Of a stretch of 30,204 bases of DNA, positions 3,900-19,265 are shown piece after piece; the stretch's first letter is position 1, and each line of letters starts with the position of its first letter. The notes under the pieces were generated by a model that saw nothing but the letters and a program-made list of their open reading frames with translations, ran no database searches and had not been told where the DNA came from. A program made the position numbers and the translations under genes. Location of the stretch: the IMG/VR virus record IMGVR_UViG_3300045988_156735; one strand, written 5' to 3'. The DNA comes from a virus. Its lineage: Duplodnaviria; Heunggongvirae; Uroviricota; Caudoviricetes.

Positions 3900-3975
3900 G
3901 GCCCCTTAGCTCAGTGGTTAGAGCAGGCGACTCATAATCGCACGGTCATCGGTTCAAATCCGGTAGGGGCCACCA
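3900..3975 (+). tRNA. tRNA with CAU anticodon (tRNA-Ile2-like; could be annotated tRNA-Met)
   Basis: 76-nt cloverleaf folded by hand: acceptor GGCCCCT/AGGGGCC, D-arm GCTC-AGTGGTTA-GAGC, anticodon arm GGCGA-CTCATAA-TCGCA, T-arm ATCGG-TTCAAAT-CCGGT, discriminator A and encoded CCA. The 5-prime half matches my memory of E. coli ileX. Confidence 0.85.
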
Positions 3976-5450: not shown

Positions 5451-5472
5451 ACCGTAACGATAACGAACAACG

Positions 5473-6833: not shown

Positions 6834-6861
6834 TGCAGATACCTGTTTGCTATTTATTTAT

Positions 6862-6891
6862 AAAACCACCTGCGGGTGGTTTTGTTTTTTT
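6862..6891 (+). terminator. Rho-independent terminator
   Basis: AAACCACC - TGCG - GGTGGTTT hairpin followed by a T-rich run (tgttttttt). Confidence 0.7.
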
Positions 6892-6996: not shown

Positions 6997-7125
6997 ATTA
7001 CTGGAAGGTGGGCGACCGCCGTCAGTTGCGACCTGACGACAGTCATTCATACCCACAGGGTGCCGTGGATACAAACCGAGGCCCACTTGCTTGCACAAGC
7101 GAGGGGATTTTAGCGGATAAACGGC

Positions 7126-7749
7126 ATGACAAAACATCTTAATGTGGTTTCTTTACCACTTTCTGTGTTGATTGGTTATGAAAAGAACGCTCGCACACAC
7201 TCCGTGGAGCAGGTAGATCAGATTGTTGCCAGCATACAGGAGTACGGATGGACTAATCCGATCCTGATAGACGAGAACAACGTTGTAATTGCTGGTCATG
7301 GTCGAATTGCTGCGGCCACTCAGTTGGGGATGGATGATGTTCCCTGCATTGTTCTGGAAGGGCTAACGGAGAATCAGAAGAAGGCATATCGTCTGGCCGA
7401 CAACCGTATTCCGCTGAATGCTGGTTGGGATGAAGAGCTGTTAAGCGCGGAGCTTGCAGATCTTGCGGCCGATGATTTTGCTCTGGACTCAATTGGTTTT
7501 ACTCAGCGCGAACTGGATAACTTATTGAGTGCGGCGGTCTACGATGACACAGAGGGTATGGATATCCCATTTGAGAAGGATGAGGCCAAATCAGGCGTAA
7601 AAGTTCAGTACCTGTCATTTGGAGGTCATAAAATCCCGGCAACGGATGAGGAAGCGGATCGTTTTGACTGCGCGGTGTCTCGTTATGTTGATGATAATGG
7701 CAGCTATATCGGATTTGTATCCGCATTGCTGGCTGGGGAGGTGTGCTGA
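7126..7749 (+). CDS. ParB-like N-terminal domain protein (paralog 1)
   Basis: 207 aa; ParB/Srx-type block ...NPILIDENNVVIAGHGRIAAATQLG...; about 60 percent identical by eye to the ORF at 10416-11006 over the N-terminal 100 aa. Confidence 0.65.
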   Translation: MTKHLNVVSLPLSVLIGYEKNARTHSVEQVDQIVASIQEYGWTNPILIDENNVVIAGHGRIAAATQLGMDDVPCIVLEGLTENQKKAYRLADNRIPLNAGWDEELLSAELADLAADDFALDSIGFTQRELDNLLSAAVYDDTEGMDIPFEKDEAKSGVKVQYLSFGGHKIPATDEEADRFDCAVSRYVDDNGSYIGFVSALLAGEVC

Positions 7750-9122
7750 TGCTTCACCTCAATTACGACATAACGCACCTACGCGGCGCGGAATATAACC
7801 CGCGTTTTATCGGTGAGGATGATCTTGCGAGGCTGGCGGAAAGCGTCAGGGAGCTGGGGCTTGTGAAGCCATTGATAGTGCGCGGCGATTTGCTGGTGGC
7901 GGGACACCAAAGGACGAAGGCGCTACGTAAGTTGGGAATAACGCGTGCTGCGGTGTATGTGTTGCCCTGTGAAACGACGGTATACGACGAAGTACGGTTT
8001 AACCAACTGCATAACGGAACGGATTTTGATAGCGGAGATGAGCGTTGCAGGGTGTCCGGTCTGGAAGATAAGCATGGTTTTGTTCAGGTATCGGCAAGCC
8101 AGATCTCAGGCAATATGCGCGCGAAAATGGCATATGTTCGAAAGAACATAGCGGAACTGGTTATCAAGTATGGTCCGTGGGGTGGTTGTGTTGCTACTCA
8201 GTCTGGTGAGGTTATTCACTGTGCTCAGTATGCATTAGCAGCGAAAATGACGCGCACACCGCTAACGGTGTTTGTGATCCCTGATGTTGAGAAGGAAAAA
8301 TACCAAAGTTATCTGAATAAAACTTATGGTGTATTTGAGTATTCTCATCTGGAGAAAACAACATACATCCAGACGTATGCGCAGCTTATGCGGTTGCGTA
8401 ATGGTGGCAGCCTGAAATCAAATCTGTATGAGTCGTTGATCCTCCCGATCATTGCCAAGACGCCAAGAGGAATTGATTTTGGTTCGGGGCAGGGAGACTA
8501 CGCGCGAATGCTCAGGGCAAAGGGATATAACCTGCATGATCTCGAGCTTTTCCGCCGTAAGGGCGCTGGAAACACTCTGGATAGGGCCGCAACAAACCGG
8601 ATGATTGATACGCTGGTGGACGACTTAAAAACGCGAGGGCGTTATGACTACGTGATTTGCGATAGCGTTTTGAACTCGGTCGATAGTGTCGAGGCTGAAT
8701 GGTCCGTTCTGACGGTTCTAAAAGGCCTGTGTAAAGCTGGTGGGTCAATATTCTTTTCTGGTCGTAGCCGTGGAGAGCTGGAAACAGTCCTGAAGCAAAC
8801 ACAAGCGGCGAGTTCCAAAAGCCGGCTTTATTTTATTGATCATAACGGTTTTACCGCGTTGTACCGGAAGGGGCACTGGTTTTACCAGAAGTTTCACTCT
8901 GATGATGAAGTGAAGCAGTTGTGTCGTGTACATGGTTTCAGGATTAAGCGGTCAATATTCAACTGTAAGAGCTGGTATTTGCACGTCATTAACGATGATT
9001 CCCTTAGTTGGGCGAGTCTGGAGAAAGCTGTTCGTTTTGAGTTTGAGTTGCCGTTGCCTGGTGGTTCAACAATCGGACGATCTGATGATGTGCTGGCGGC
9101 TTTCCGGCCGTTGATTAAGTAG
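7749..9122 (+). CDS. Fusion protein: ParB-like N-terminal domain plus C-terminal class-I SAM-methyltransferase-like domain
   Basis: ATG 7749 overlaps the upstream stop (ATGA) with GGGGAGG 9 nt upstream; N-terminus LIVRGDLLVAGHQRTKALRKLG (ParB-like); C-terminal half has IDFGSGQGDY (glycine-rich SAM motif I-like) and YDYVICDSVLNSV; no DPPY/NPPY-type motif seen. Confidence 0.55.
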   Translation: MLHLNYDITHLRGAEYNPRFIGEDDLARLAESVRELGLVKPLIVRGDLLVAGHQRTKALRKLGITRAAVYVLPCETTVYDEVRFNQLHNGTDFDSGDERCRVSGLEDKHGFVQVSASQISGNMRAKMAYVRKNIAELVIKYGPWGGCVATQSGEVIHCAQYALAAKMTRTPLTVFVIPDVEKEKYQSYLNKTYGVFEYSHLEKTTYIQTYAQLMRLRNGGSLKSNLYESLILPIIAKTPRGIDFGSGQGDYARMLRAKGYNLHDLELFRRKGAGNTLDRAATNRMIDTLVDDLKTRGRYDYVICDSVLNSVDSVEAEWSVLTVLKGLCKAGGSIFFSGRSRGELETVLKQTQAASSKSRLYFIDHNGFTALYRKGHWFYQKFHSDDEVKQLCRVHGFRIKRSIFNCKSWYLHVINDDSLSWASLEKAVRFEFELPLPGGSTIGRSDDVLAAFRPLIK

Positions 9123-9138
9123 TGTGTAGGAGGCGCTG

Positions 9139-9858
9139 GTGGCTGACAGAATTGAGATAAAGATGGATTTTTCTTCTCAGGATATTCAACGACAACTCCA
9201 GCGCCTTGAAGAACGCGAATTGCCGTTCGCAATGGCGCTTGCGGCAACCAGAACGGCAAAGGCTTCTCAGGCTGCGATTAAGAATGAAATTAATCGGGTA
9301 TTTGACAGGCCCACGCCGTGGATTCAGAACTCTACTTACGTTTTGGCCGCAAAGAAGAGTGATCCTACAGCCATTGTGTATGCTCGTGAATGGGGAGGAA
9401 CGCCAGCCCCTGTAACGTTGACTCCGCAAATCGAAGGTGGCCAACGACAGTACAAACGCTCAGAAGGGGCGCTAAGGGCTGGTGGATATTTGCCTAACGG
9501 CTGGCAGCTTGCTCCTGGTCCCGGCGCAAAGCTGGACAAATACGGGAATATTTCGCGGGGGCAATTACAGCAGGTCTTATCTGGCCTAAGAGTTCAGCGA
9601 GATGCGCATCAAAATCGCCGTCAGGGCAAGCCTACGGAGTTTTTTGTTGTTCGACCTGGTACAAGTAACCCGCTTCAACCAGGCGTCTGGCAGCGCGTTG
9701 GGCGGCGTCCTACGTTGATCCTTACGTTTATCCAGCAACCTAACTATTCGCAGCGTCTTGATTGGCATGGCGTGGCGCTGCGTGCTGGTGAGGATGCGTT
9801 TGCTGATGAAGTCACAAAGGCTATTGATGACATTCTTTCTAAGACCTTCTCTCGTTAA
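9139..9858 (+). CDS. Hypothetical protein (239 aa), third gene of the ParB-like module
   Basis: GTG 9139 with AGGAGG 6 nt upstream, 16 nt after the previous stop; Gly/Pro/Arg-rich central region; no motif recognised. Confidence 0.5.
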   Translation: MADRIEIKMDFSSQDIQRQLQRLEERELPFAMALAATRTAKASQAAIKNEINRVFDRPTPWIQNSTYVLAAKKSDPTAIVYAREWGGTPAPVTLTPQIEGGQRQYKRSEGALRAGGYLPNGWQLAPGPGAKLDKYGNISRGQLQQVLSGLRVQRDAHQNRRQGKPTEFFVVRPGTSNPLQPGVWQRVGRRPTLILTFIQQPNYSQRLDWHGVALRAGEDAFADEVTKAIDDILSKTFSR

Positions 9859-10048
9859 TCATCGTGTGGTTGATGGTGTTGTTATGCAGAGTGTATTCAC
9901 TGTGTTCTGTAGCGTCGCTCGCTGGCTGTCTGTGGGGGAGCACGAGCATCGTTTCATCGTCCGGCAGAATTGGGTCCTTCTGGCCAAAAGCGTTGGATGC
10001 GGGTCATTCGAACCCCGATGTTCGGCTAGCTAAACGTGAAAAAAGTTA

Positions 10049-10419
10049 GGTTAAAAGTTGCGGTAAAAGAAATTTACTCATCTCATTGAAAAATATCGGG
10101 AAAACGTGATTTTTTGCTGTATTTGTGCTGGTAAAAAGAAAGTAGAAAATTTTCTTTTAGATCATCAAGATACGCGCAGATCTTTAACCAATGTGATGTT
10201 GTTCTGATAAAAATCGTTATAAATCATGCAAATACATCCAATCTTTTAACCAAAACACCATCTCAAGATCCTTTTTACTTATAAAAACTTAATAAAATCA
10301 GATGATTATGCTGGTTTGTGTGATTTTTTATGAGTAAAAAGATCGTCATTTTTCTCTTTTAGTATCAATAAGTTAAACAGTTTTCTTTAACCTGTTGTGT
10401 TATGGCGGTTAAAAAATGG
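10049..10419. promoter_or_regulatory. AT-rich spacer with iterated TCTTTAACC-type motifs and GATC sites (candidate packaging site, protein-binding array or promoter)
   Basis: Direct repeats TCTTTAACCAA (10181), ATCTTTTAACCAAAA (10241), TTCTTTAACC (10383); inverted GGTTAA copies at 10049 and 10407; GATC at 10160, 10179, 10267, 10341; no credible ORF. Confidence 0.4.
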
Positions 10420-11006
10420 CTCTAAAAATCGAATATTTACCAGTCGGTAAGCTGCTCAGATACGCCAAAAATTCACGGACTCATTCAGATGAGCAGGTTG
10501 AACAGTTGGTGAACAGTATCCGTGAGTTCGGTTTCACTAATCCTGTGCTGATCGATGAAAAGAATGAACTGATTGCGGGGCATGGTCGGCTTGCAGCAGC
10601 CGAAATTCTGGAAATGGATAAAGTTCCGGCGATTCGGTTGAGTAACCTTTCTGAAAAACAGAAGAAGGCTTACAGGATTGCAGATAACAAGCTGGCCTTA
10701 AATGCTGGCTGGGATATGCAGCTTCTGGCCGAAGAAGTCAAAGAGTTAATGGATGATGATTTTGATATTGATCTGCTTGGGTTTAATGATGCAGAGCTTG
10801 ACGAAATGTTAAGCGATGAACAGCCGCAGGAAGAAGACGATAATTCTTCCCCTGTTGTTCAAATTAAGTACCTGTCTATTGATAAAGAACGTATTCCCGC
10901 GACGGATATGGAAATTGCATTGTTGCTGGATGTTTATCGTCAGTACCACGACGCGCATGAAACGCATGAGGGATTTGTTCAGTATCTTGCTAATGGTTGC
11001 AAGTAA
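10416..11006 (+). CDS. ParB-like N-terminal domain protein (paralog 2), immediately upstream of the terminase genes
   Basis: 196 aa; ...NPVLIDEKNELIAGHGRLAAAEILE...; stop overlaps the small terminase start (TAATG). Confidence 0.65.
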   Translation: MALKIEYLPVGKLLRYAKNSRTHSDEQVEQLVNSIREFGFTNPVLIDEKNELIAGHGRLAAAEILEMDKVPAIRLSNLSEKQKKAYRIADNKLALNAGWDMQLLAEEVKELMDDDFDIDLLGFNDAELDEMLSDEQPQEEDDNSSPVVQIKYLSIDKERIPATDMEIALLLDVYRQYHDAHETHEGFVQYLANGCK

Positions 11007-11557
11007 TGGCCATCGTCAGTAAGTCAGAGTTTGCTCGCCGGAAAGGTATTTCTCCGGCAATGGTTACGAAGCTCTGTCGTTCCGGTCGCATTCCAGTGCT
11101 GAAAAGCGGCAAGCTGGATTTTGATAAAGCCAGTGCGGCTTATGAAGCGAGCCGACAGGTTGGTCGTGAGGTATCTGCTGAAAATGGAAAAAGAGGGCAT
11201 GGGATATCTTCGGAACAACCAGAGTTACCCGCTGATGATGCCGGATTAGCTGGTGGTACTTCCGGTGTTGCGGTGCAATTCAACAAGGCTAAGACCGCAG
11301 AAAAAATTTATCAGGCAAAGCTGAAACGCCTTGAATTTGAAGAAAAGGAAGGCTCTCTCATCGCTAAAGATGCGGTCAGGGATGATGCATTTCTGGCAGC
11401 TAATGAATTGCGTAGCCGCTTATTTAGTATTGCTCCAAGAGCAGCTCCCCGTTGTGAAGGCAAAACAGCCAGGGAGATCGAACGCATTATTGAAGACGAG
11501 ATTAATTTTGCGCTTCAGGCGCTCCAGGAATCCCGATTTATTAAGCAGGAAGAATAA
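11006..11557 (+). CDS. Terminase small subunit
   Basis: 183 aa from ATG 11006; N-terminal HTH-like segment (SKSEFARRKGISPAMVTKL); ends 5 nt before the large terminase. Confidence 0.65.
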   Translation: MAIVSKSEFARRKGISPAMVTKLCRSGRIPVLKSGKLDFDKASAAYEASRQVGREVSAENGKRGHGISSEQPELPADDAGLAGGTSGVAVQFNKAKTAEKIYQAKLKRLEFEEKEGSLIAKDAVRDDAFLAANELRSRLFSIAPRAAPRCEGKTAREIERIIEDEINFALQALQESRFIKQEE

Positions 11558-11562
11558 ACCTC

Positions 11563-13419
11563 ATGGGCGAAACAGTATGGAGCACCGCTTTTTTCCGTGC
11601 GCTTCGCCCTAAATCACGGCTAACTGTTTCCGAATGGGCTGATAAGTATCGTCATGTAGCGCCGGGAACGTCTCCAGAGCCAGGGCCGTGGCGTACAAGC
11701 CGAGTGCCATATTTGCGTGAACCAATGGATGTTATTGGTGACGCTGATACAGAAACAGTAGTGATGCAATGTAGCTCGCAAATTGGTAAATCCGAATTAC
11801 AGCTAAATGTTATGGGTTACTTTGCAGATCAGGAGCCATCTCCTCAGTTGATGATTTATCCAACGGTAGAGGCGGCTGAGGCTTTTTCAAAAGAGCGTAT
11901 TGATCCGACGTTCAAATATTCCCCTGGTTTGAAACACAAGCTGCATGAAGGGAAAGAGGGGCGCGGTGCAGCCAAAAAGTCCAGCACGACTATACGTATG
12001 AAGCATTACGCTGGTGGATATATAGCACTTGTTGGTGCTAATTCCCCAGCAGGTCTTGCATCCAGGCCAATTCGAATACTGTTAGCTGATGAGATTGATC
12101 GTTACGGTGTGACGCAGGAGGGCGACCCACTAAAACTAGGTATTCAGCGTACTACCAACTTTCATAATCGTAAGAAAGTTTTTGTTTCTACTCCTGTTTT
12201 GGAGGAAACGAGCAAAATCCACAAGTGGTTTAAGCTCTCCGATCAGCGTTACTACCATGTTCCTTGCCCATGTTGTGGCACCATGCAGGTGATGAAATGG
12301 TCGCAAGTCAGATGGGATAAGAGCGATTCAGGTGAGGCGTTACCGGAAACGGCCAGATATGAGTGCTGTGAGTGCGGCGGGATTATGCGCGGATCTGGTA
12401 AACCAGACGTTGATTGGTTGGCGAAGGGGGTATGGATAGCTGAACATACTGGAGTTAAAGGTATTGTTGGTTTTCATATTAACAGTCTTTACTCCCCGTG
12501 GGTTGCATTGTCAGAGCTGGTTGAAGAATTTACGGAAGCAACCAGAAACCGCGATAAAAATGGATTAATGGAGTTTATTAACCTTAAGCTGGGTGAGCCA
12601 TGGAAAGAGGATGCTAAAGACGATATCGATCCTGAATACTTGTTGCAACGCAGAATAAGGTTTGAAGAGTTTTTACCAGATGATGTTTTATTGTTAAGTG
12701 CTGGTGTTGACGTACAGGACACGTATTTAGTTTGTGAATTGGTCGGTTGGGGAAAAGGTAAGGAGTCATGGGGGATAGAATATAAAATATTCCCAGGTGA
12801 TCCCGCACAAGATGTTGTCTGGAAACAACTTGATGAATACTTACTCCGTAGCTGGTCATTCCGTGACGGTCGAAAATTACAGATTTCTTCCGTTTGTATT
12901 GACTCTGGTGGGCATTTTACGACAGAGGTATATCGCTTTACTAAGCCGAGAGAATCAAGGCGAATATACTCTATCAGGGGGCGTGGTGGGGTAGGTTTAC
13001 CATTTATAGGAAAGCCAAGTAATAATAACCGTGTGGGTGCTATGTTGTTTAATTTGGGGGTTGATGATGGTAAAGGGACCATCATGGCAAGAATTAAACT
13101 ACATGATCCTGGTCCTGGTTATATGCATTTCCCATTAGATTCTGACAGAGGATATGATACCGAATACTTTAAAGGATTATTATCAGAGAAGAAAATATTT
13201 GAATATAAAAATGGGCAGACAAAAGAAAAGTGGGTGAAAGTCTACGAGCGTAACGAGCCTCTTGATTGCCGTAACTATGCAACTGCCGCGATGGAAATTC
13301 TGAACCCTAATTTTAACTGGCTTGCCGAACAGGAAATGCGAGGTAATGTGTATGTGCAGAACTCGTCAGGTATACGTAGAAGACGCCGTAGAGTTATAAG
13401 TAAAGGCGTAACCATATAG
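11563..13419 (+). CDS. Terminase large subunit, lambda GpA family
   Basis: 618 aa; N-terminal region with VMQCSSQIGKSE P-loop-like block and overall length and layout matching GpA-type terminases as I recall them. Confidence 0.8.
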   Translation: MGETVWSTAFFRALRPKSRLTVSEWADKYRHVAPGTSPEPGPWRTSRVPYLREPMDVIGDADTETVVMQCSSQIGKSELQLNVMGYFADQEPSPQLMIYPTVEAAEAFSKERIDPTFKYSPGLKHKLHEGKEGRGAAKKSSTTIRMKHYAGGYIALVGANSPAGLASRPIRILLADEIDRYGVTQEGDPLKLGIQRTTNFHNRKKVFVSTPVLEETSKIHKWFKLSDQRYYHVPCPCCGTMQVMKWSQVRWDKSDSGEALPETARYECCECGGIMRGSGKPDVDWLAKGVWIAEHTGVKGIVGFHINSLYSPWVALSELVEEFTEATRNRDKNGLMEFINLKLGEPWKEDAKDDIDPEYLLQRRIRFEEFLPDDVLLLSAGVDVQDTYLVCELVGWGKGKESWGIEYKIFPGDPAQDVVWKQLDEYLLRSWSFRDGRKLQISSVCIDSGGHFTTEVYRFTKPRESRRIYSIRGRGGVGLPFIGKPSNNNRVGAMLFNLGVDDGKGTIMARIKLHDPGPGYMHFPLDSDRGYDTEYFKGLLSEKKIFEYKNGQTKEKWVKVYERNEPLDCRNYATAAMEILNPNFNWLAEQEMRGNVYVQNSSGIRRRRRRVISKGVTI

Positions 13420-17755: not shown

Positions 17756-18148
17756 ATGGCCAGACTGATTAAAAACATTGATACGATAAGCCACGGCTCG
17801 CTAAAAGCGGGCCGTTTGCTTAATGGGCTAATGGATAACTCCAGAATTGCCGAACTGATTGCGTCAGGACATGCTATTGCCACCGAAGAGGATGGTGATT
17901 TGGCATCGGCCGGGGGCTATGATGCTGCTAAGTTAGCTTTTGAGCATGGATACGCATCTGCTGTTAATGATGCTGTGGACGCGGGGTTGATTACGCGAAC
18001 GGAGGCGGGTAGCTGTGTATTCGAGGTTGAGTTTGAGGATGATGGCGGCAATGAGGAAACGGTTGCTGATGATTCATCTGAATCTGTAGCTACTTCTGAT
18101 ACCAGTAATGCGAAAAAATCAACGCAAAAAAAAGGTAATAAGAAGTAA
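17756..18148 (+). CDS. Hypothetical head-associated protein with acidic C-terminal tail
   Basis: 130 aa; ATG overlaps the capsid stop region; acidic stretch EVEFEDDGGNEETVADDSSE. Confidence 0.45.
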   Translation: MARLIKNIDTISHGSLKAGRLLNGLMDNSRIAELIASGHAIATEEDGDLASAGGYDAAKLAFEHGYASAVNDAVDAGLITRTEAGSCVFEVEFEDDGGNEETVADDSSESVATSDTSNAKKSTQKKGNKK

Positions 18149-18492
18149 TGAACTCCTTCAAAGAGGTTATAGCGCAAGATATTTCTGCAATATTCCTCAA
18201 TGAAAAAGAGTTTGCCGATACATATAACATAGACGGCAAGGATATCCTTGCCGTTATTGATACAGACCTTATTCATGAGCGGAATAAACGCTCATATGCT
18301 GAGTTTGCAGAGGGAATAAATCAGGGGCAAATAATATTATTTGTTTCAAGAAAAGATTTTCCTGTTCTCCCTGTCAAAGACCAGTCAATGAAAATCAACG
18401 GTAAAAATTATATTGTTGATGAAGTATCAGATAATGTTGGTGTATTGGAAATAACTCTCACTGTTAATACTAACAGAGGAATGCCGATTTGA
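18148..18492 (+). CDS. Putative head-tail connector or head completion protein
   Basis: 114 aa in the head-to-tail transition block; assignment by position only. Confidence 0.4.
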   Translation: MNSFKEVIAQDISAIFLNEKEFADTYNIDGKDILAVIDTDLIHERNKRSYAEFAEGINQGQIILFVSRKDFPVLPVKDQSMKINGKNYIVDEVSDNVGVLEITLTVNTNRGMPI

Positions 18493-18974
18493 TTAATCTT
18501 TTGATAGATGCAATAAAAAATCGGTTGGAACATGAGGTTTTCCATGATTTATTAGTGCAGGGGCCTCCTTATGATGAAACAGACAGCGATATTAAATTGT
18601 TTGTTCCAACAATATTTAAAGGGTACTTGCCTCCTAAATCACAACCATCTCCAGATAAACCGCCAGAATTTCCTCATGTGATTATCAGGCCCACGGAAGG
18701 AGGAATGCAGCCTGAAACGGATGAAGTTAAGGTTAAGTTTCTTCTAGGTGGTTTTTGTGAGGACCATACTGGATATGAATGGGTAATGGCTCTTCTTGAA
18801 AGGATGATGTTTCATTTTCAGGAGAAGCCTTTACTTGAAGAGAAATTTCTCTTTCAGGGTGATATCAGATGGCGAATGTTTGATGATCAACCATATCCAT
18901 ATTGGATAACGGAAGCAACTGGAACGTGGCTAGTATTAAAGCCTCAGAATATTCAGTCTCAGGAGTTTATCTAA
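18489..18974 (+). CDS. Putative tail completion or neck protein (TTG start)
   Basis: 161 aa; TTG start overlapping the previous stop; assignment by position only. Confidence 0.4.
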   Translation: MINLLIDAIKNRLEHEVFHDLLVQGPPYDETDSDIKLFVPTIFKGYLPPKSQPSPDKPPEFPHVIIRPTEGGMQPETDEVKVKFLLGGFCEDHTGYEWVMALLERMMFHFQEKPLLEEKFLFQGDIRWRMFDDQPYPYWITEATGTWLVLKPQNIQSQEFI

Positions 18975-19265
18975 ATGGCTAATAAGAAAAGTAGTAAAGA
19001 AGATATAGAAAAGAAGGAAGATGTTGCTCAAACATTTGTATATATAGGACCAACAATCCCTCAACTCTCAATTTTGAAGCATAAACTATTTAAGAATGGT
19101 TTATCTCCAGAGTGTAAAAAATTAATATCACATATTCCTGGTGCAAAGTGTTTGTTTGTGGCAACCAGTGATTTTGCAGATGCAGAAAAAAGACTTTCTG
19201 ATAAAACCAGTGTCGAGTATGTAATGTACTCTAGAGTTTCTTCTTCTATCATGGAGATTAAATAA
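18975..19265 (+). CDS. Hypothetical virion-region protein (96 aa)
   Basis: ORF immediately after the previous stop; its stop overlaps the sheath start (TAATG). Confidence 0.4.
   Translation: MANKKSSKEDIEKKEDVAQTFVYIGPTIPQLSILKHKLFKNGLSPECKKLISHIPGAKCLFVATSDFADAEKRLSDKTSVEYVMYSRVSSSIMEIK

What the first reader, a model, noticed from the sequence alone, without database searches (positions are those of the whole stretch)
7126..9858. Translationally coupled ParB-like / ParB-methyltransferase-like / unknown three-gene module
Three tightly linked genes (ATGA overlap at 7749, 16-nt gap at 9123-9138) encode a small ParB-like protein, a 459-aa fusion of a ParB-like N-terminal domain with a class-I SAM-methyltransferase-like domain (IDFGSGQGDY motif I, no DPPY-type amino-methyltransferase motif), and a 239-aa Gly/Pro/Arg-rich protein I cannot place. 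The module sits between two terminator-bounded accessory cassettes and the packaging genes, and is more GC-rich by eye than its flanks. ParB/Srx-like domains are known in partition, nuclease and CTP-switch roles; a fusion to a non-DNA-type methyltransferase fold with a dedicated third gene is not a module I can assign to a described phage function. It could be a DNA or nucleotide modification system, an anti-restriction device, or a defense island.
Basis: partly seen in the sequence, partly recalled or inferred. Interest (0 to 1): 0.75.

Follow-up and report, generated by a model that had tools for sequence, protein, structure and literature searches.

The report
Phage ParB plus ParB-methyltransferase gene pair
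The three genes are real, but only the first two form a conserved unit: a small ParB-like protein and a ParB-methyltransferase fusion of untested function that sits just before the DNA-packaging genes in phages of many bacterial phyla; the third gene is a tail-completion-like protein that travels with the lambda-type packaging genes.

Summary
The window is a ~48.5-kb E. coli phage-plasmid, 99.6% identical to a plasmid of ATCC 25922 and to Yersinia phage vB_YpM_39.

All three ORFs exist as described, but the triad is not a module.

- **g1 and g2 are the conserved unit.** Among 65 dereplicated loci encoding a g2 relative, 53 have a g1-like small ParB directly upstream on the same strand. In 40, a large terminase follows within a few genes. 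These loci span Proteobacteria, Bacillota, Chloroflexota, Bacteroidota and Planctomycetota.
- **g3 is separate.** It accompanies g2 only in the closest enterobacterial kin. Its own family (508 hits in IMG/VR) sits directly before lambda-type TerS/TerL and is the last gene before the right cos end in phages such as Pseudomonas F10. It has an HK97-gp10/gpZ-like fold.
- **g2 architecture.** It has a ParB NTP-pocket domain (GHQR), a family-specific middle domain and a class-I SAM methyltransferase with no DNA-methyltransferase motifs.
- **Prior knowledge.** The fusion architecture was catalogued in 2025, but its function is untested.

My best reading, which is an inference, is a late-expressed, ParB-escorted nucleic-acid (probably DNA) methylation module acting before packaging. 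I rate the interest as moderate.

The parts
6860..6885 (+). Terminator-like hairpin followed by a T-run, upstream of g1. It marks the boundary with the preceding accessory ORFs.
   Evidence: 11-pair stem, then TTTTTTT; sequence.
7126..7749 (+). g1: a small ParB-like protein of 207 aa. It has an NTP-pocket domain with GHGR, a helical linker and a conserved C-terminal domain, and no HTH. It is the conserved partner of g2.
   Evidence: phrog_620, E 2.9e-74; conserved N21, G57xxR60, DN92-93, WD101-102, and C-terminal E176/G192/G196-F197 across 50 loci; at position -1 on the same strand in 53 of 65 loci.
7749..9122 (+). g2: a 457-aa fusion of a ParB NTP-pocket domain (residues 1-95, GHQR), a family-specific middle domain (about 96-235) and a class-I SAM methyltransferase with a C-terminal extension (about 236-457). 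The start is probably the ATG at 7749 (TGATG overlap, GGAGG 9 nt upstream).
   Evidence: phrog_5475 over the full length, E 1.6e-265, 'unknown function'; AF2 pLDDT 92.7; the middle domain occurs almost only in ~460-aa proteins at residues ~96-238.
9139..9858 (+). g3: a 239-aa protein with an HK97 gp10 / lambda gpZ-like (tail-completion-like) fold. It is the last gene before cos and belongs with the lambda-type packaging/head module, not with g1-g2.
9986..10055 (.). A conserved cos-like block (…AAAAGCGTTGGATGCGGGTCATTCGAACCCCG…AAAAAGTTAGGTTAAAAG) in an otherwise diverged, AT-rich 557-nt spacer.
   Evidence: it is the only long run of invariant columns shared with the relatives whose g2 is 90% and 70% identical; the Yersinia phage record OR545053 starts at window 10002, inside this block. 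Assigning it as cos is an inference.
10049..10413 (.). A cluster of five TTTAACC heptamers between the cos-like block and g4. They are candidate binding sites for TerS or for g4.
   Evidence: 5 of the window's 9 copies lie here; the 70% relative has many GTTAACC/TTTAACC copies in the same spacer.
10416..11006 (+). g4: a second small ParB of the g1 type (196 aa, 48% identical to g1 over the full length). Its end overlaps the terS start.
   Evidence: (ParB_N 33.7 bits, above the cut-off).
10997..13419 (+). Context: the small terminase (10997/11006-11557) and the lambda GpA-type large terminase (11563-13419).
   Evidence: (phrog_57).

Best explanation
g1 and g2 form a two-gene, translationally coupled late-phage module.

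**Proposed mechanism.** g1 is a small ParB-fold protein with an NTP pocket and a C-terminal domain but no HTH. It escorts or activates g2, which carries the same type of ParB pocket, a family-specific middle domain and a class-I SAM methyltransferase. Most likely the two ParB pockets engage each other in an NTP-dependent way on replicated phage DNA. The enzyme then methylates the nucleic acid, probably DNA, shortly before packaging. This would mark or protect the genome that enters the capsid.

**g3 is not part of this.** It is a gpZ/HK97-gp10-like tail-completion-type protein that travels with the lambda-type terminase/head module and is the last gene before cos.

**What is shown:** the gene structure, the domain folds, the conservation of the pair, its position before the terminase genes, and the independence of g3.

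**What is inferred:** that the substrate is DNA, that g1 and g2 interact, that an NTP gates the activity, and that the genes are expressed late.
For: **The pair is the conserved unit**
- Of 65 g2 loci dereplicated at 85% identity, from IMG/VR and GTDB genomes, 61 have a small ParB nearby. In 53 it is at position -1 on the same strand.
- The stop and start overlap by 1-14 nt in most loci.
- Pairwise identities of g1 and g2 correlate at r = 0.65. In the phrog_38-terminase subset, r(g1,g2) is 0.75 against r(g2,TerL) of 0.32.

**Position relative to packaging genes**
- A large terminase lies within +2 to +5 genes in 40 of 65 loci. Two unrelated TerL clusters are involved: phrog_38 type in 26 loci and lambda GpA type in 14.
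- Bacteroides phage BS-TP3 has the order ParB, methyltransferase, TerS, and a TerL annotated as Terminase_6.
- Independence from the terminase family points to a job done on DNA before packaging, not to a part in terminase chemistry.

**Pocket motifs are kept**
- g2 has invariant A-G-H-Q-R, which aligns with Spo0J's GERR.
- g1 has GHGR, conserved in 94-98% of partners.

**Analogies that point to DNA as the substrate**
- The first ~135 residues of g1 and g4 are the same module that is fused to annotated DNA adenine methyltransferases in hundreds of phages.
- In E. coli phage vB_EcoS-673R7, a g4-like ParB sits directly before a TET-associated glycosyltransferase and TerS.
- A small phage ParB with a nucleotide-binding domain and a C-terminal domain, but no evident DNA-binding domain, activates its cognate thymine dioxygenase on dsDNA, and terminases co-occur in 19% of such contigs (PMC13229309).
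- Kaljevic et al. report ParB + Methyltransf_23 as a phage/prophage-enriched fusion, and ATP binding by SAM-methyltransferase fusions (PMC12704722).

**g3 is independent**.
Against: - The methyltransferase domain has none of the DNA-methyltransferase hallmarks. There is no DPPY-type and no PCQ/ENV motif.
- Its nearest solved structures are small-molecule and tRNA methyltransferases: 3d2l, 3h2b, Trm9, GNMT, METTL6 and UbiG.
- No DNA-binding domain is recognisable in g1 or g2.
- In the one characterised ParB-plus-enzyme pair, mutating the NTP-pocket residues did not affect activation (abstract of PMC13229309), so NTP gating may not apply.
- There is no methylome, expression or interaction data for any member.
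- The adjacency to terminase genes could simply reflect the known hot-spot for accessory genes between lysis and cos.
Confidence: 0.45

Rival explanations
1. g2 methylates something other than DNA: a protein (such as a packaging or virion protein, or a host factor), a nucleotide or other small molecule, or RNA/tRNA. The ParB pockets would then serve only as NTP sensors or as an adaptor.
For: - The closest structures are small-molecule and tRNA methyltransferases.
- No DNA-methyltransferase motifs are present.
- ParB/Srx folds also occur in non-DNA enzymes such as sulfiredoxin and the serine kinase SerK (PMC12704722; a weak SerK hit).
- Invariant Arg/Lys/His residues in the methyltransferase lid (R270, R339, R373, K381, H383) would suit any anionic substrate.
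Against: - The g1-type ParB module is otherwise attached to, or paired with, enzymes that act on DNA bases: N6/N4 methyltransferases, TAGT and a thymine dioxygenase.
- Similarity within the class-I fold is a poor guide to substrate.
Confidence: 0.25
2. The ParB domains are NTP-regulated nickases or nucleases that help or regulate terminase at cos/pac, as HNH proteins do in HK97-like phages. The methyltransferase would tune this activity.
For: - The pair sits immediately upstream of terS/terL in most loci.
- g4 is translationally coupled to terS.
- A B. cereus prophage ParB-methyltransferase beside TerS nicks DNA non-specifically (PMC3592412; PMC5512222).
Against: - The pair occurs with unrelated terminase families. 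This includes the lambda GpA type, which to my knowledge needs no accessory nuclease.
- Many phages with the same terminases lack the pair. Of 82 g3/GpA loci, 5 have a small ParB and 2 have g2.
- Nuclease activity of ParB folds is now widely reinterpreted in the light of NTP-switch function (PMC12704722).
Confidence: 0.12
3. g1, g2 and g4 are plasmid-partition proteins that maintain the phage-plasmid, as the database annotation 'chromosome (plasmid) partitioning protein' suggests.
For: - The element is a plasmid in 76 of 79 E. coli occurrences.
- The proteins have the ParB fold.
Against: - The plasmid has its own ParA with a small downstream partner and RepA about 13 kb away, in the maintenance region.
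- g1 and g2 lack an HTH and score far below TIGR00180 (31 and 16 bits against a cut-off of 58).
- No parA is adjacent.
- The same pair is found in chromosomal prophages and in phage contigs of many phyla.
Confidence: 0.03
4. One reading: g1, g2 and g3 act together as one three-component modification or defence system.
For: - The three genes are tightly spaced in this lineage.
- They are retained together in all ~74 E. coli copies.
Against: - g3 is absent from every g2 locus below about 70% g2 identity.
- Of 82 g3-family loci, 2 carry g2.
- g3 keeps its own synteny with lambda-type terminase genes and has a virion-protein-like fold.
Confidence: 0.03

Closest known systems
ParB-CTPase-fold + Methyltransf_23 (PF02195 + PF13489) fusion proteins of phages and prophages, catalogued by Kaljevic, Sukhoverkov, Johnson, Hocher & Le, PNAS 2025 (PMC12704722)
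   Same: g2 has this architecture and the same phage/prophage setting. One bacterial and one phage member were cloned for NTP-binding assays.
   Different: That survey is domain-centric and assigns no function. As far as I read it, it does not describe the obligate upstream small-ParB partner, the family-specific middle domain or the position before the terminase genes. I could not check whether their tested proteins belong to the g2 family.
ParB-fused N6/N4 DNA methyltransferases of phages (phrog_498; PADLOC MTase_II PDLC03229; e.g. B. cereus Bce_0392, Wolbachia WO met2-type)
   Same: They share the ParB N-terminal module with g1 and g4 (about 135-150 residues, E 1e-38 to 1e-52) and are often located near terminase genes.
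   Different: In those proteins the methyltransferase is a bona fide amino-methyltransferase fused in cis. Here g1 and g4 are stand-alone, and the enzyme g2 has a different class-I methyltransferase without DPPY, plus its own ParB domain.
ParB-dependent phage thymine dioxygenases (5mYOX176/ParB176; O'Toole et al., PNAS 2026, PMC13229309)
   Same: A small phage ParB with a nucleotide-binding domain and a C-terminal domain, but no evident DNA-binding domain, is encoded next to a DNA-modifying enzyme that it activates on dsDNA. Terminases are frequent neighbours.
   Different: The partner there is an Fe/2OG dioxygenase, not a methyltransferase, and it carries no ParB domain of its own. Homology between g1 and ParB176 was not tested because I had no ParB176 sequence.
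Lambda gpZ / HK97 gp10 tail-completion (neck) protein superfamily (comparison for g3)
   Different: g3 is about twice as long, with a long N-terminal helix and insertions. It is below Pfam thresholds. It is encoded not in the neck/tail cluster but as the last gene before cos, directly upstream of terS.

Membership tests
ParB/Srx (ParB-CTPase) fold | Sequence match to PF02195 or to solved ParB N-domains | tested here: met
   g4 scores 33.7 bits, above the cut-off. g1 scores 24.8 and g2 24.3 bits, just under 26.3. The g2 family profile hits Spo0J 6sdk at E 3.7e-8 and other ParB/Noc structures. phrog_620 matches g1 and g4 at E 1e-74.
ParB/Srx (ParB-CTPase) fold | P-motif GxxR arginine in Box II | tested here: met
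   GHGR in g1 and g4, and GHQR in g2. It is invariant in the g2 family and 94-98% conserved in g1 partners. It aligns with GERR of Spo0J.
ParB/Srx (ParB-CTPase) fold | NTP binding or hydrolysis | not testable with these tools
   Only by analogy: ATP binding is reported for ParB + SAM-methyltransferase fusions (PMC12704722).
Canonical partition ParB (ParABS) | HTH DNA-binding domain plus C-terminal dimerisation domain; TIGR00180 above its cut-off | tested here: not met
   TIGR00180 scores 31, 16 and 40 bits against a cut-off of 58.45. No HTH family was hit.
Canonical partition ParB (ParABS) | Adjacent parA gene | tested here: not met
   The only ParA of the plasmid lies about 13 kb away on the other strand with its own small partner. 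No conserved upstream neighbour other than the small ParB was found.
ParB + Methyltransf_23 fusion class (Kaljevic et al. 2025) | PF02195 and PF13489 in one polypeptide, in a phage or prophage context | tested here: met
   PF13489 scores 32.7 bits, above 27, together with ParB_N. Precomputed Pfam for more than 100 homologues lists both domains. The context is a phage-plasmid.
Class-I SAM-dependent methyltransferase | Rossmann-like fold with motif I GxGxG and an acidic residue after beta-2 | tested here: met
   The AF2 model (pLDDT 92.7) matches many class-I methyltransferases at probability 1.0. D243-F-G-x-G247 and E266 are invariant.
DNA amino-methyltransferases (N6A/N4C) and C5-methyltransferases | Catalytic motif IV (D/N/S)PP(Y/F/W), or PCQ together with ENV | tested here: not met
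   None is present in g2. The single 'PCE' lies in the ParB domain. There are no Pfam, NCBIfam or PADLOC hits of the methyltransferase domain to DNA-methyltransferase families.
Lambda gpZ / HK97 gp10 tail-completion superfamily (g3) | Fold similarity to a solved member | tested here: met
Lambda gpZ / HK97 gp10 tail-completion superfamily (g3) | Pfam PF06763 or PF04883 at the gathering threshold | tested here: not met
   g3 itself gives no hit. Ten of 58 relatives hit Minor_tail_Z only weakly, best E 1.3e-4.
Lambda gpZ / HK97 gp10 tail-completion superfamily (g3) | Presence in virions or a role in tail completion | not testable with these tools
   Needs virion proteomics or a knock-out.
Known anti-phage defence systems (PADLOC-DB) | A match to a defence-system protein model beyond a shared generic domain | tested here: not met
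   Only the ParB N-terminus matches the first ~150 positions of MTase_II. g3 has no hit.

The most novel reading that the evidence does not exclude
g1 and g2 form an NTP-gated ParB hetero-clamp that loads on phage DNA and delivers a methyltransferase of a class not known to act on DNA. It would install a non-canonical mark (not m6A, m4C or m5C) on the genome before packaging. Alternatively, it methylates a nucleotide or other non-DNA target in a ParB-pocket-dependent way. Either case would define a new enzyme class and a first biological role for the phage ParB + Methyltransf_23 fusions.
Probability: 0.15. Interest if true: 0.8.

Novelty: new member of a known kind. Interest (0 to 1): 0.42.

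Why it matters
ParB-fold proteins outside chromosome segregation are a current open question. A 2025 survey found ParB-methyltransferase fusions enriched in phages but assigned them no function. In 2026 one small phage ParB was shown to activate a DNA dioxygenase.

This locus puts a well-conserved member of that uncharacterised class, together with its obligate small-ParB partner, in a genetically tractable setting. It sits on a plasmid of the standard strain E. coli ATCC 25922 and in cultured Yersinia phages.

If the pair modifies DNA, it would add a new methyltransferase class to phage anti-restriction or epigenetic toolkits. It would also extend the 'ParB as escort for DNA-modifying enzymes' idea. 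If it does not modify DNA, the target would still be of interest.

The negative result matters too: the third gene should not be included in knock-out or cloning designs as part of the system.

Tried and rejected
- **Tandem ParB folds in g2.** From the secondary-structure pattern I suspected that the g2 middle domain is a second, degenerate ParB fold. hhalign of the N-terminal profile against the middle-domain profile gave no similarity (probability 0.2%). I dropped the idea. The domain could not be fold-searched on its own.
- **Middle domain in other architectures.** An exhaustive phmmer search of 1.84 billion representatives gave 210 hits, nearly all ~460-aa proteins with the domain at residues ~96-238. 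One 1348-aa hit, P0242, is a translated tandem repeat and so an artefact.
- **g3 against the neck-cluster 161-aa protein.** No similarity was found. Whether the neck cluster holds another gp10-like protein is therefore unresolved. Pfam gave nothing for the four neck ORFs; PHROGs gave Hc1 and 'virion structural protein'.
- **The search for related loci with the full g3 alignment** failed because no block was conserved enough. A 13-sequence sub-alignment worked.
- **Defence hypothesis.** PADLOC gave only the shared ParB N-terminus.
- **Presence/absence polymorphism in E. coli.** The module is in 74 genomes and the terminase in 72, so the module is fixed in this lineage and gives no accessory-gene signal.
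- **Rfam on the whole window** found only the tRNA.
- **Literature on the Yersinia and E. coli phage records** gave nothing about these genes. vB_YpM_HQ103 is an unrelated 32-kb phage. The Serratia phage paper only mentions ParB homologues.
- **Cluster 1 of the neighbourhood analysis** (155-aa ORFs at +1, some on the opposite strand) has no family hits. It is probably an ORF-calling artefact over terS.
Full report
**What the window is.** Region 7000-10000 is 99.5-99.9% identical to ~48-kb circular plasmids of E. coli, among them the ATCC 25922 plasmid NZ_CP009073. It is equally close to Escherichia phage vB_EcoM-613R2 and Yersinia phages vB_YpM_39/41/44. Of 79 E. coli occurrences, 76 are on plasmids. 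The ATCC 25922 plasmid carries RepA, ParA, a toxin-antitoxin pair, a lysis cassette, lambda-type terminase/portal/protease/capsid genes and a contractile tail. The element is therefore a phage-plasmid, and the finding lies in its late region.

**Checking the observation.**
- The three ORFs are present at 7126-7749, 7743/7749-9122 and 9139-9858.
- The g1/g2 junction reads GGGGAGGTGTGCTGATG. The TGA stop and the ATG start share one base, and a GGAGG lies 9 nt upstream. The ATG at 7749 (457 aa, as in RefSeq) is therefore the likelier start.
- g3 starts at a GTG, 6 nt after an AGGAGG.
- Pfam gives ParB_N for g1 and for the g2 N-terminus, just below the cut-off, and Methyltransf_23 above the cut-off for g2.
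- IDFGSGQGDY is present, and no DPPY-type motif exists.
- g1-g3 are GC-richer than the structural genes.
- Terminator-like hairpins lie upstream at 5472 and 6860. None was found after g3.
It is 48% identical to g1 over its full length and overlaps the terS start.

**The conserved unit is a pair, not a triad.**
- g2 has more than 771 homologous 90%-identity clusters, almost all ~460 aa with the same two Pfam domains.
- I fetched 120 loci encoding g2 relatives from IMG/VR and GTDB genomes. I called ORFs and searched them with profiles of g2 and g3 and with g1, g4, TerS and TerL. I then dereplicated at 85% g2 identity, which left 65 loci.
- A small ParB is present in 61 of the 65 and sits immediately upstream on the same strand in 53. 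Ends usually overlap by 1-14 nt.
- A large terminase follows within +2 to +5 genes in 40 loci. Two unrelated TerL clusters are involved: phrog_38 type in 26 loci and lambda GpA type in 14.
- Bacteroides phage BS-TP3 shows ParB, methyltransferase, TerS, then a TerL annotated as Terminase_6.
- Hosts include Enterobacterales, Alphaproteobacteria, Bacillota, Chloroflexota, Planctomycetota, Bacteroidota, Chlorobiota, Myxococcota and Kiritimatiellia.
- g1 and g2 identities co-vary at r = 0.65. In the phrog_38 subset the values are 0.75 for g1-g2 against 0.32 for g2-TerL.
- g3 was detected only in the closest enterobacterial loci, those with g2 at 70% identity or more.

**What g3 is.**
- Its family is large: 508 confirmed stretches in IMG/VR.
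- Of 62 loci with at least 3.5 kb downstream, 54 have a GpA-type TerL starting 243-1784 nt after the g3 stop. The distance is mostly 600-830 nt, which is room for one TerS. Of 82 loci, 2 contain g2, and those are the window's own kin.
- Four distant homologues (31-42% identity) all lie directly before Nu1-like TerS, GpA TerL and Phage_portal_2. The three of these loci that extend far enough also show a gpW-position gene, an S49 protease, HDPD and the E-type capsid gene. None has a ParB.
- In cultured cos phages the homologue is the last gene of the linear genome. In Pseudomonas phage F10, gp063 ('minor tail protein', 38357-39100 of 39199 bp) follows holin, endolysin and Rz, and TerS starts at nt 67.
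- Several IMG/VR contigs end 42-123 nt after the gene.
- BFVD adds weak hits to HK97 gp10, tail-component and Ne1 proteins.
- Ten of 58 relatives weakly hit Pfam Minor_tail_Z, and homologues in LESphi2 and LESphi3 are annotated 'minor tail protein Z'.
- g3 is thus a divergent gpZ/gp10-like protein tied to the lambda-type packaging/head module. I cannot tell whether it is a virion protein or a cos-proximal packaging helper. HK97's gp74 HNH endonuclease, which Xu et al. describe as part of a family encoded next to cos and the terminase genes, is a precedent for the second possibility (PMC3592412).

**cos and g4.**
- The 557-nt spacer after g3 is AT-rich (GC 0.366) and mostly diverged among relatives. 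The exception is one block at about 9986-10055, which is conserved in relatives whose g2 is 90% and 70% identical.
- The Yersinia phage record begins inside this block, at window 10002. I infer that this is cosN.
- Five of the window's nine TTTAACC heptamers lie between this block and g4. The 70% relative has many GTTAACC/TTTAACC copies in the same spacer.
- On the virion DNA, g1-g2-g3 would then be the right-end genes and g4-terS-terL the left-end genes.

**Anatomy of g2 and g1.**
- The g2 model is confident: pLDDT 92.7, pTM 0.88.
- Residues 1-95 align with the Spo0J CTP-binding domain, with VAGHQRTKA over VAGERRFRA. A14, Y16-N-P-R19 and A51-G-H-Q-R55 are invariant in 51 diverse members.
- Residues ~96-235 form a strongly conserved domain (FNQLHNGTD, WGG.VAT.SGE.IH.AQYA, YGVF.Y…Q..AQ..R) with no Pfam hit. 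It occurs almost exclusively in this architecture: 210 representatives in 1.84 billion proteins.
- Residues ~236-457 are a class-I methyltransferase. Its nearest solved relatives are small-molecule and tRNA enzymes. It has invariant D243, G245, G247, E266, R270, D305, N309, D312, R373, W377 and F378, and near-invariant R339, K381 and H383.
- g1-type partners keep N21, G57xxR60, D92-N93 and W101-D102. They also keep a conserved C-terminal signature, E176…G192…G196-F197, which g4 shares.
- The first ~135-150 residues of g1 and g4 are the module found at the N-terminus of ParB-fused DNA adenine methyltransferases in hundreds of phages.

**How it most likely works.** The function itself is not shown by anything here. 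The inference rests on four observations.
- The pair is translationally coupled and co-inherited.
- It is independent of terminase type but is placed just before the packaging genes.
- The g1-type module is elsewhere fused to, or paired with, enzymes that modify DNA bases. Examples are the N6/N4 methyltransferases and a TET-associated glycosyltransferase in E. coli phage vB_EcoS-673R7 (PF20691, E 1e-34).
- A small phage ParB has been shown experimentally to activate its neighbouring thymine dioxygenase on dsDNA (PMC13229309).

I therefore favour a ParB-escorted nucleic-acid methylation step on replicated phage DNA before packaging, at confidence 0.45. The lack of any DNA-methyltransferase motif and the small-molecule-like neighbours keep a non-DNA substrate a serious rival, at 0.25. 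A nickase or packaging-helper role is supported by the B. cereus ParB-methyltransferase that nicks DNA (PMC3592412). The diversity of terminases weakens it, so I put it at 0.12. A partition role is unlikely: there is no HTH and no adjacent ParA, and the plasmid has a separate ParA locus.

**Comparison with what is known.**
- g2 belongs to the ParB-CTPase + Methyltransf_23 fusion class that Kaljevic et al. listed as phage-enriched. They cloned one bacterial and one phage member for nucleotide-binding assays, and they report ATP binding for SAM-methyltransferase fusions.
- PHROGs lists the family as phrog_5475, 'unknown function'. RefSeq names it only by its domains.
- In the papers I read I did not find three things seen here: the near-obligate small-ParB partner, the private middle domain, and the synteny with terminase genes across phyla.

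**Verdict.** The finding is real but mis-bounded. It is a member of a catalogued, functionally untested class. Interest is moderate. It offers a tractable E. coli system for an open question rather than a new kind of system.

Noticed in passing
window 10416-11006 (+): A second g1-type small ParB (g4, 196 aa, 48% identical to g1, with the same C-terminal signature). Its end overlaps the terS start. The phage therefore has two paralogous small ParBs, one coupled to g2 and one coupled to the terminase.
   Followed up: partly
window 9986-10055: A conserved block (…GCGGGTCATTCGAACCCCG…AAAAAGTTAGGTTAA…) in an otherwise diverged AT-rich spacer. The Yersinia phage vB_YpM_39 record starts inside it, at window 10002. 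It is likely cosN, which would place g1-g3 at the right end of the virion DNA.
   Followed up: partly
window 10049-10413: Five TTTAACC heptamers on both strands lie within 365 bp, out of nine in the whole 30-kb window. The 70%-identity relative L010 has many GTTAACC/TTTAACC copies in the same spacer. They are candidate cosB-type sites for TerS or g4.
   Followed up: partly
L129 (Escherichia phage vB_EcoS-673R7) 4989-6705: A g4-like ParB (61% identical over the N-terminal 135 aa) is followed directly by a TET-associated glycosyltransferase (PF20691, E 1e-34) and then TerS/TerL. This is another 'small ParB plus DNA-modifying enzyme before the terminase' pair, in a lambdoid E. coli phage.
   Followed up: partly
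L099 761-4960; L100 8536-13561; L097 2381-5292; L094 9938-13119: Chloroflexota loci (Kouleothrix, Chloroflexales, Oscillochloris) carry two or three tandem full-length g2 paralogues flanked by small ParB genes. This looks like a lineage-specific expansion of the family.
   Followed up: no
window 3900-3975 (+): A phage tRNA with anticodon CAT. It is annotated tRNA-Ile in RefSeq (ATCC 25922 plasmid) but tRNA-Met in the Yersinia phage record and by ARAGORN. An MT-A70-family methyltransferase gene lies just downstream in the ATCC 25922 annotation.
   Followed up: partly
NZ_CP173475.1 (hit H69, E. coli strain 98224): In one E. coli copy of the phage-plasmid, the large terminase gene is split by an IS1203 insertion, so that copy is probably defective for packaging.
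   Followed up: no
L205, L147, L198, L200: Several IMG/VR contigs end 42-123 nt after the g3 homologue. This is consistent with assemblies that stop at a cos end just downstream of this gene.
   Followed up: partly
window 17756-19265 (+): The four small neck ORFs between the capsid and sheath genes have no Pfam hits. PHROGs calls one Hc1 and one 'virion structural protein'. No obvious gp10/gpZ-type protein was recognised there, which leaves open whether g3 supplies that function.
   Followed up: partly
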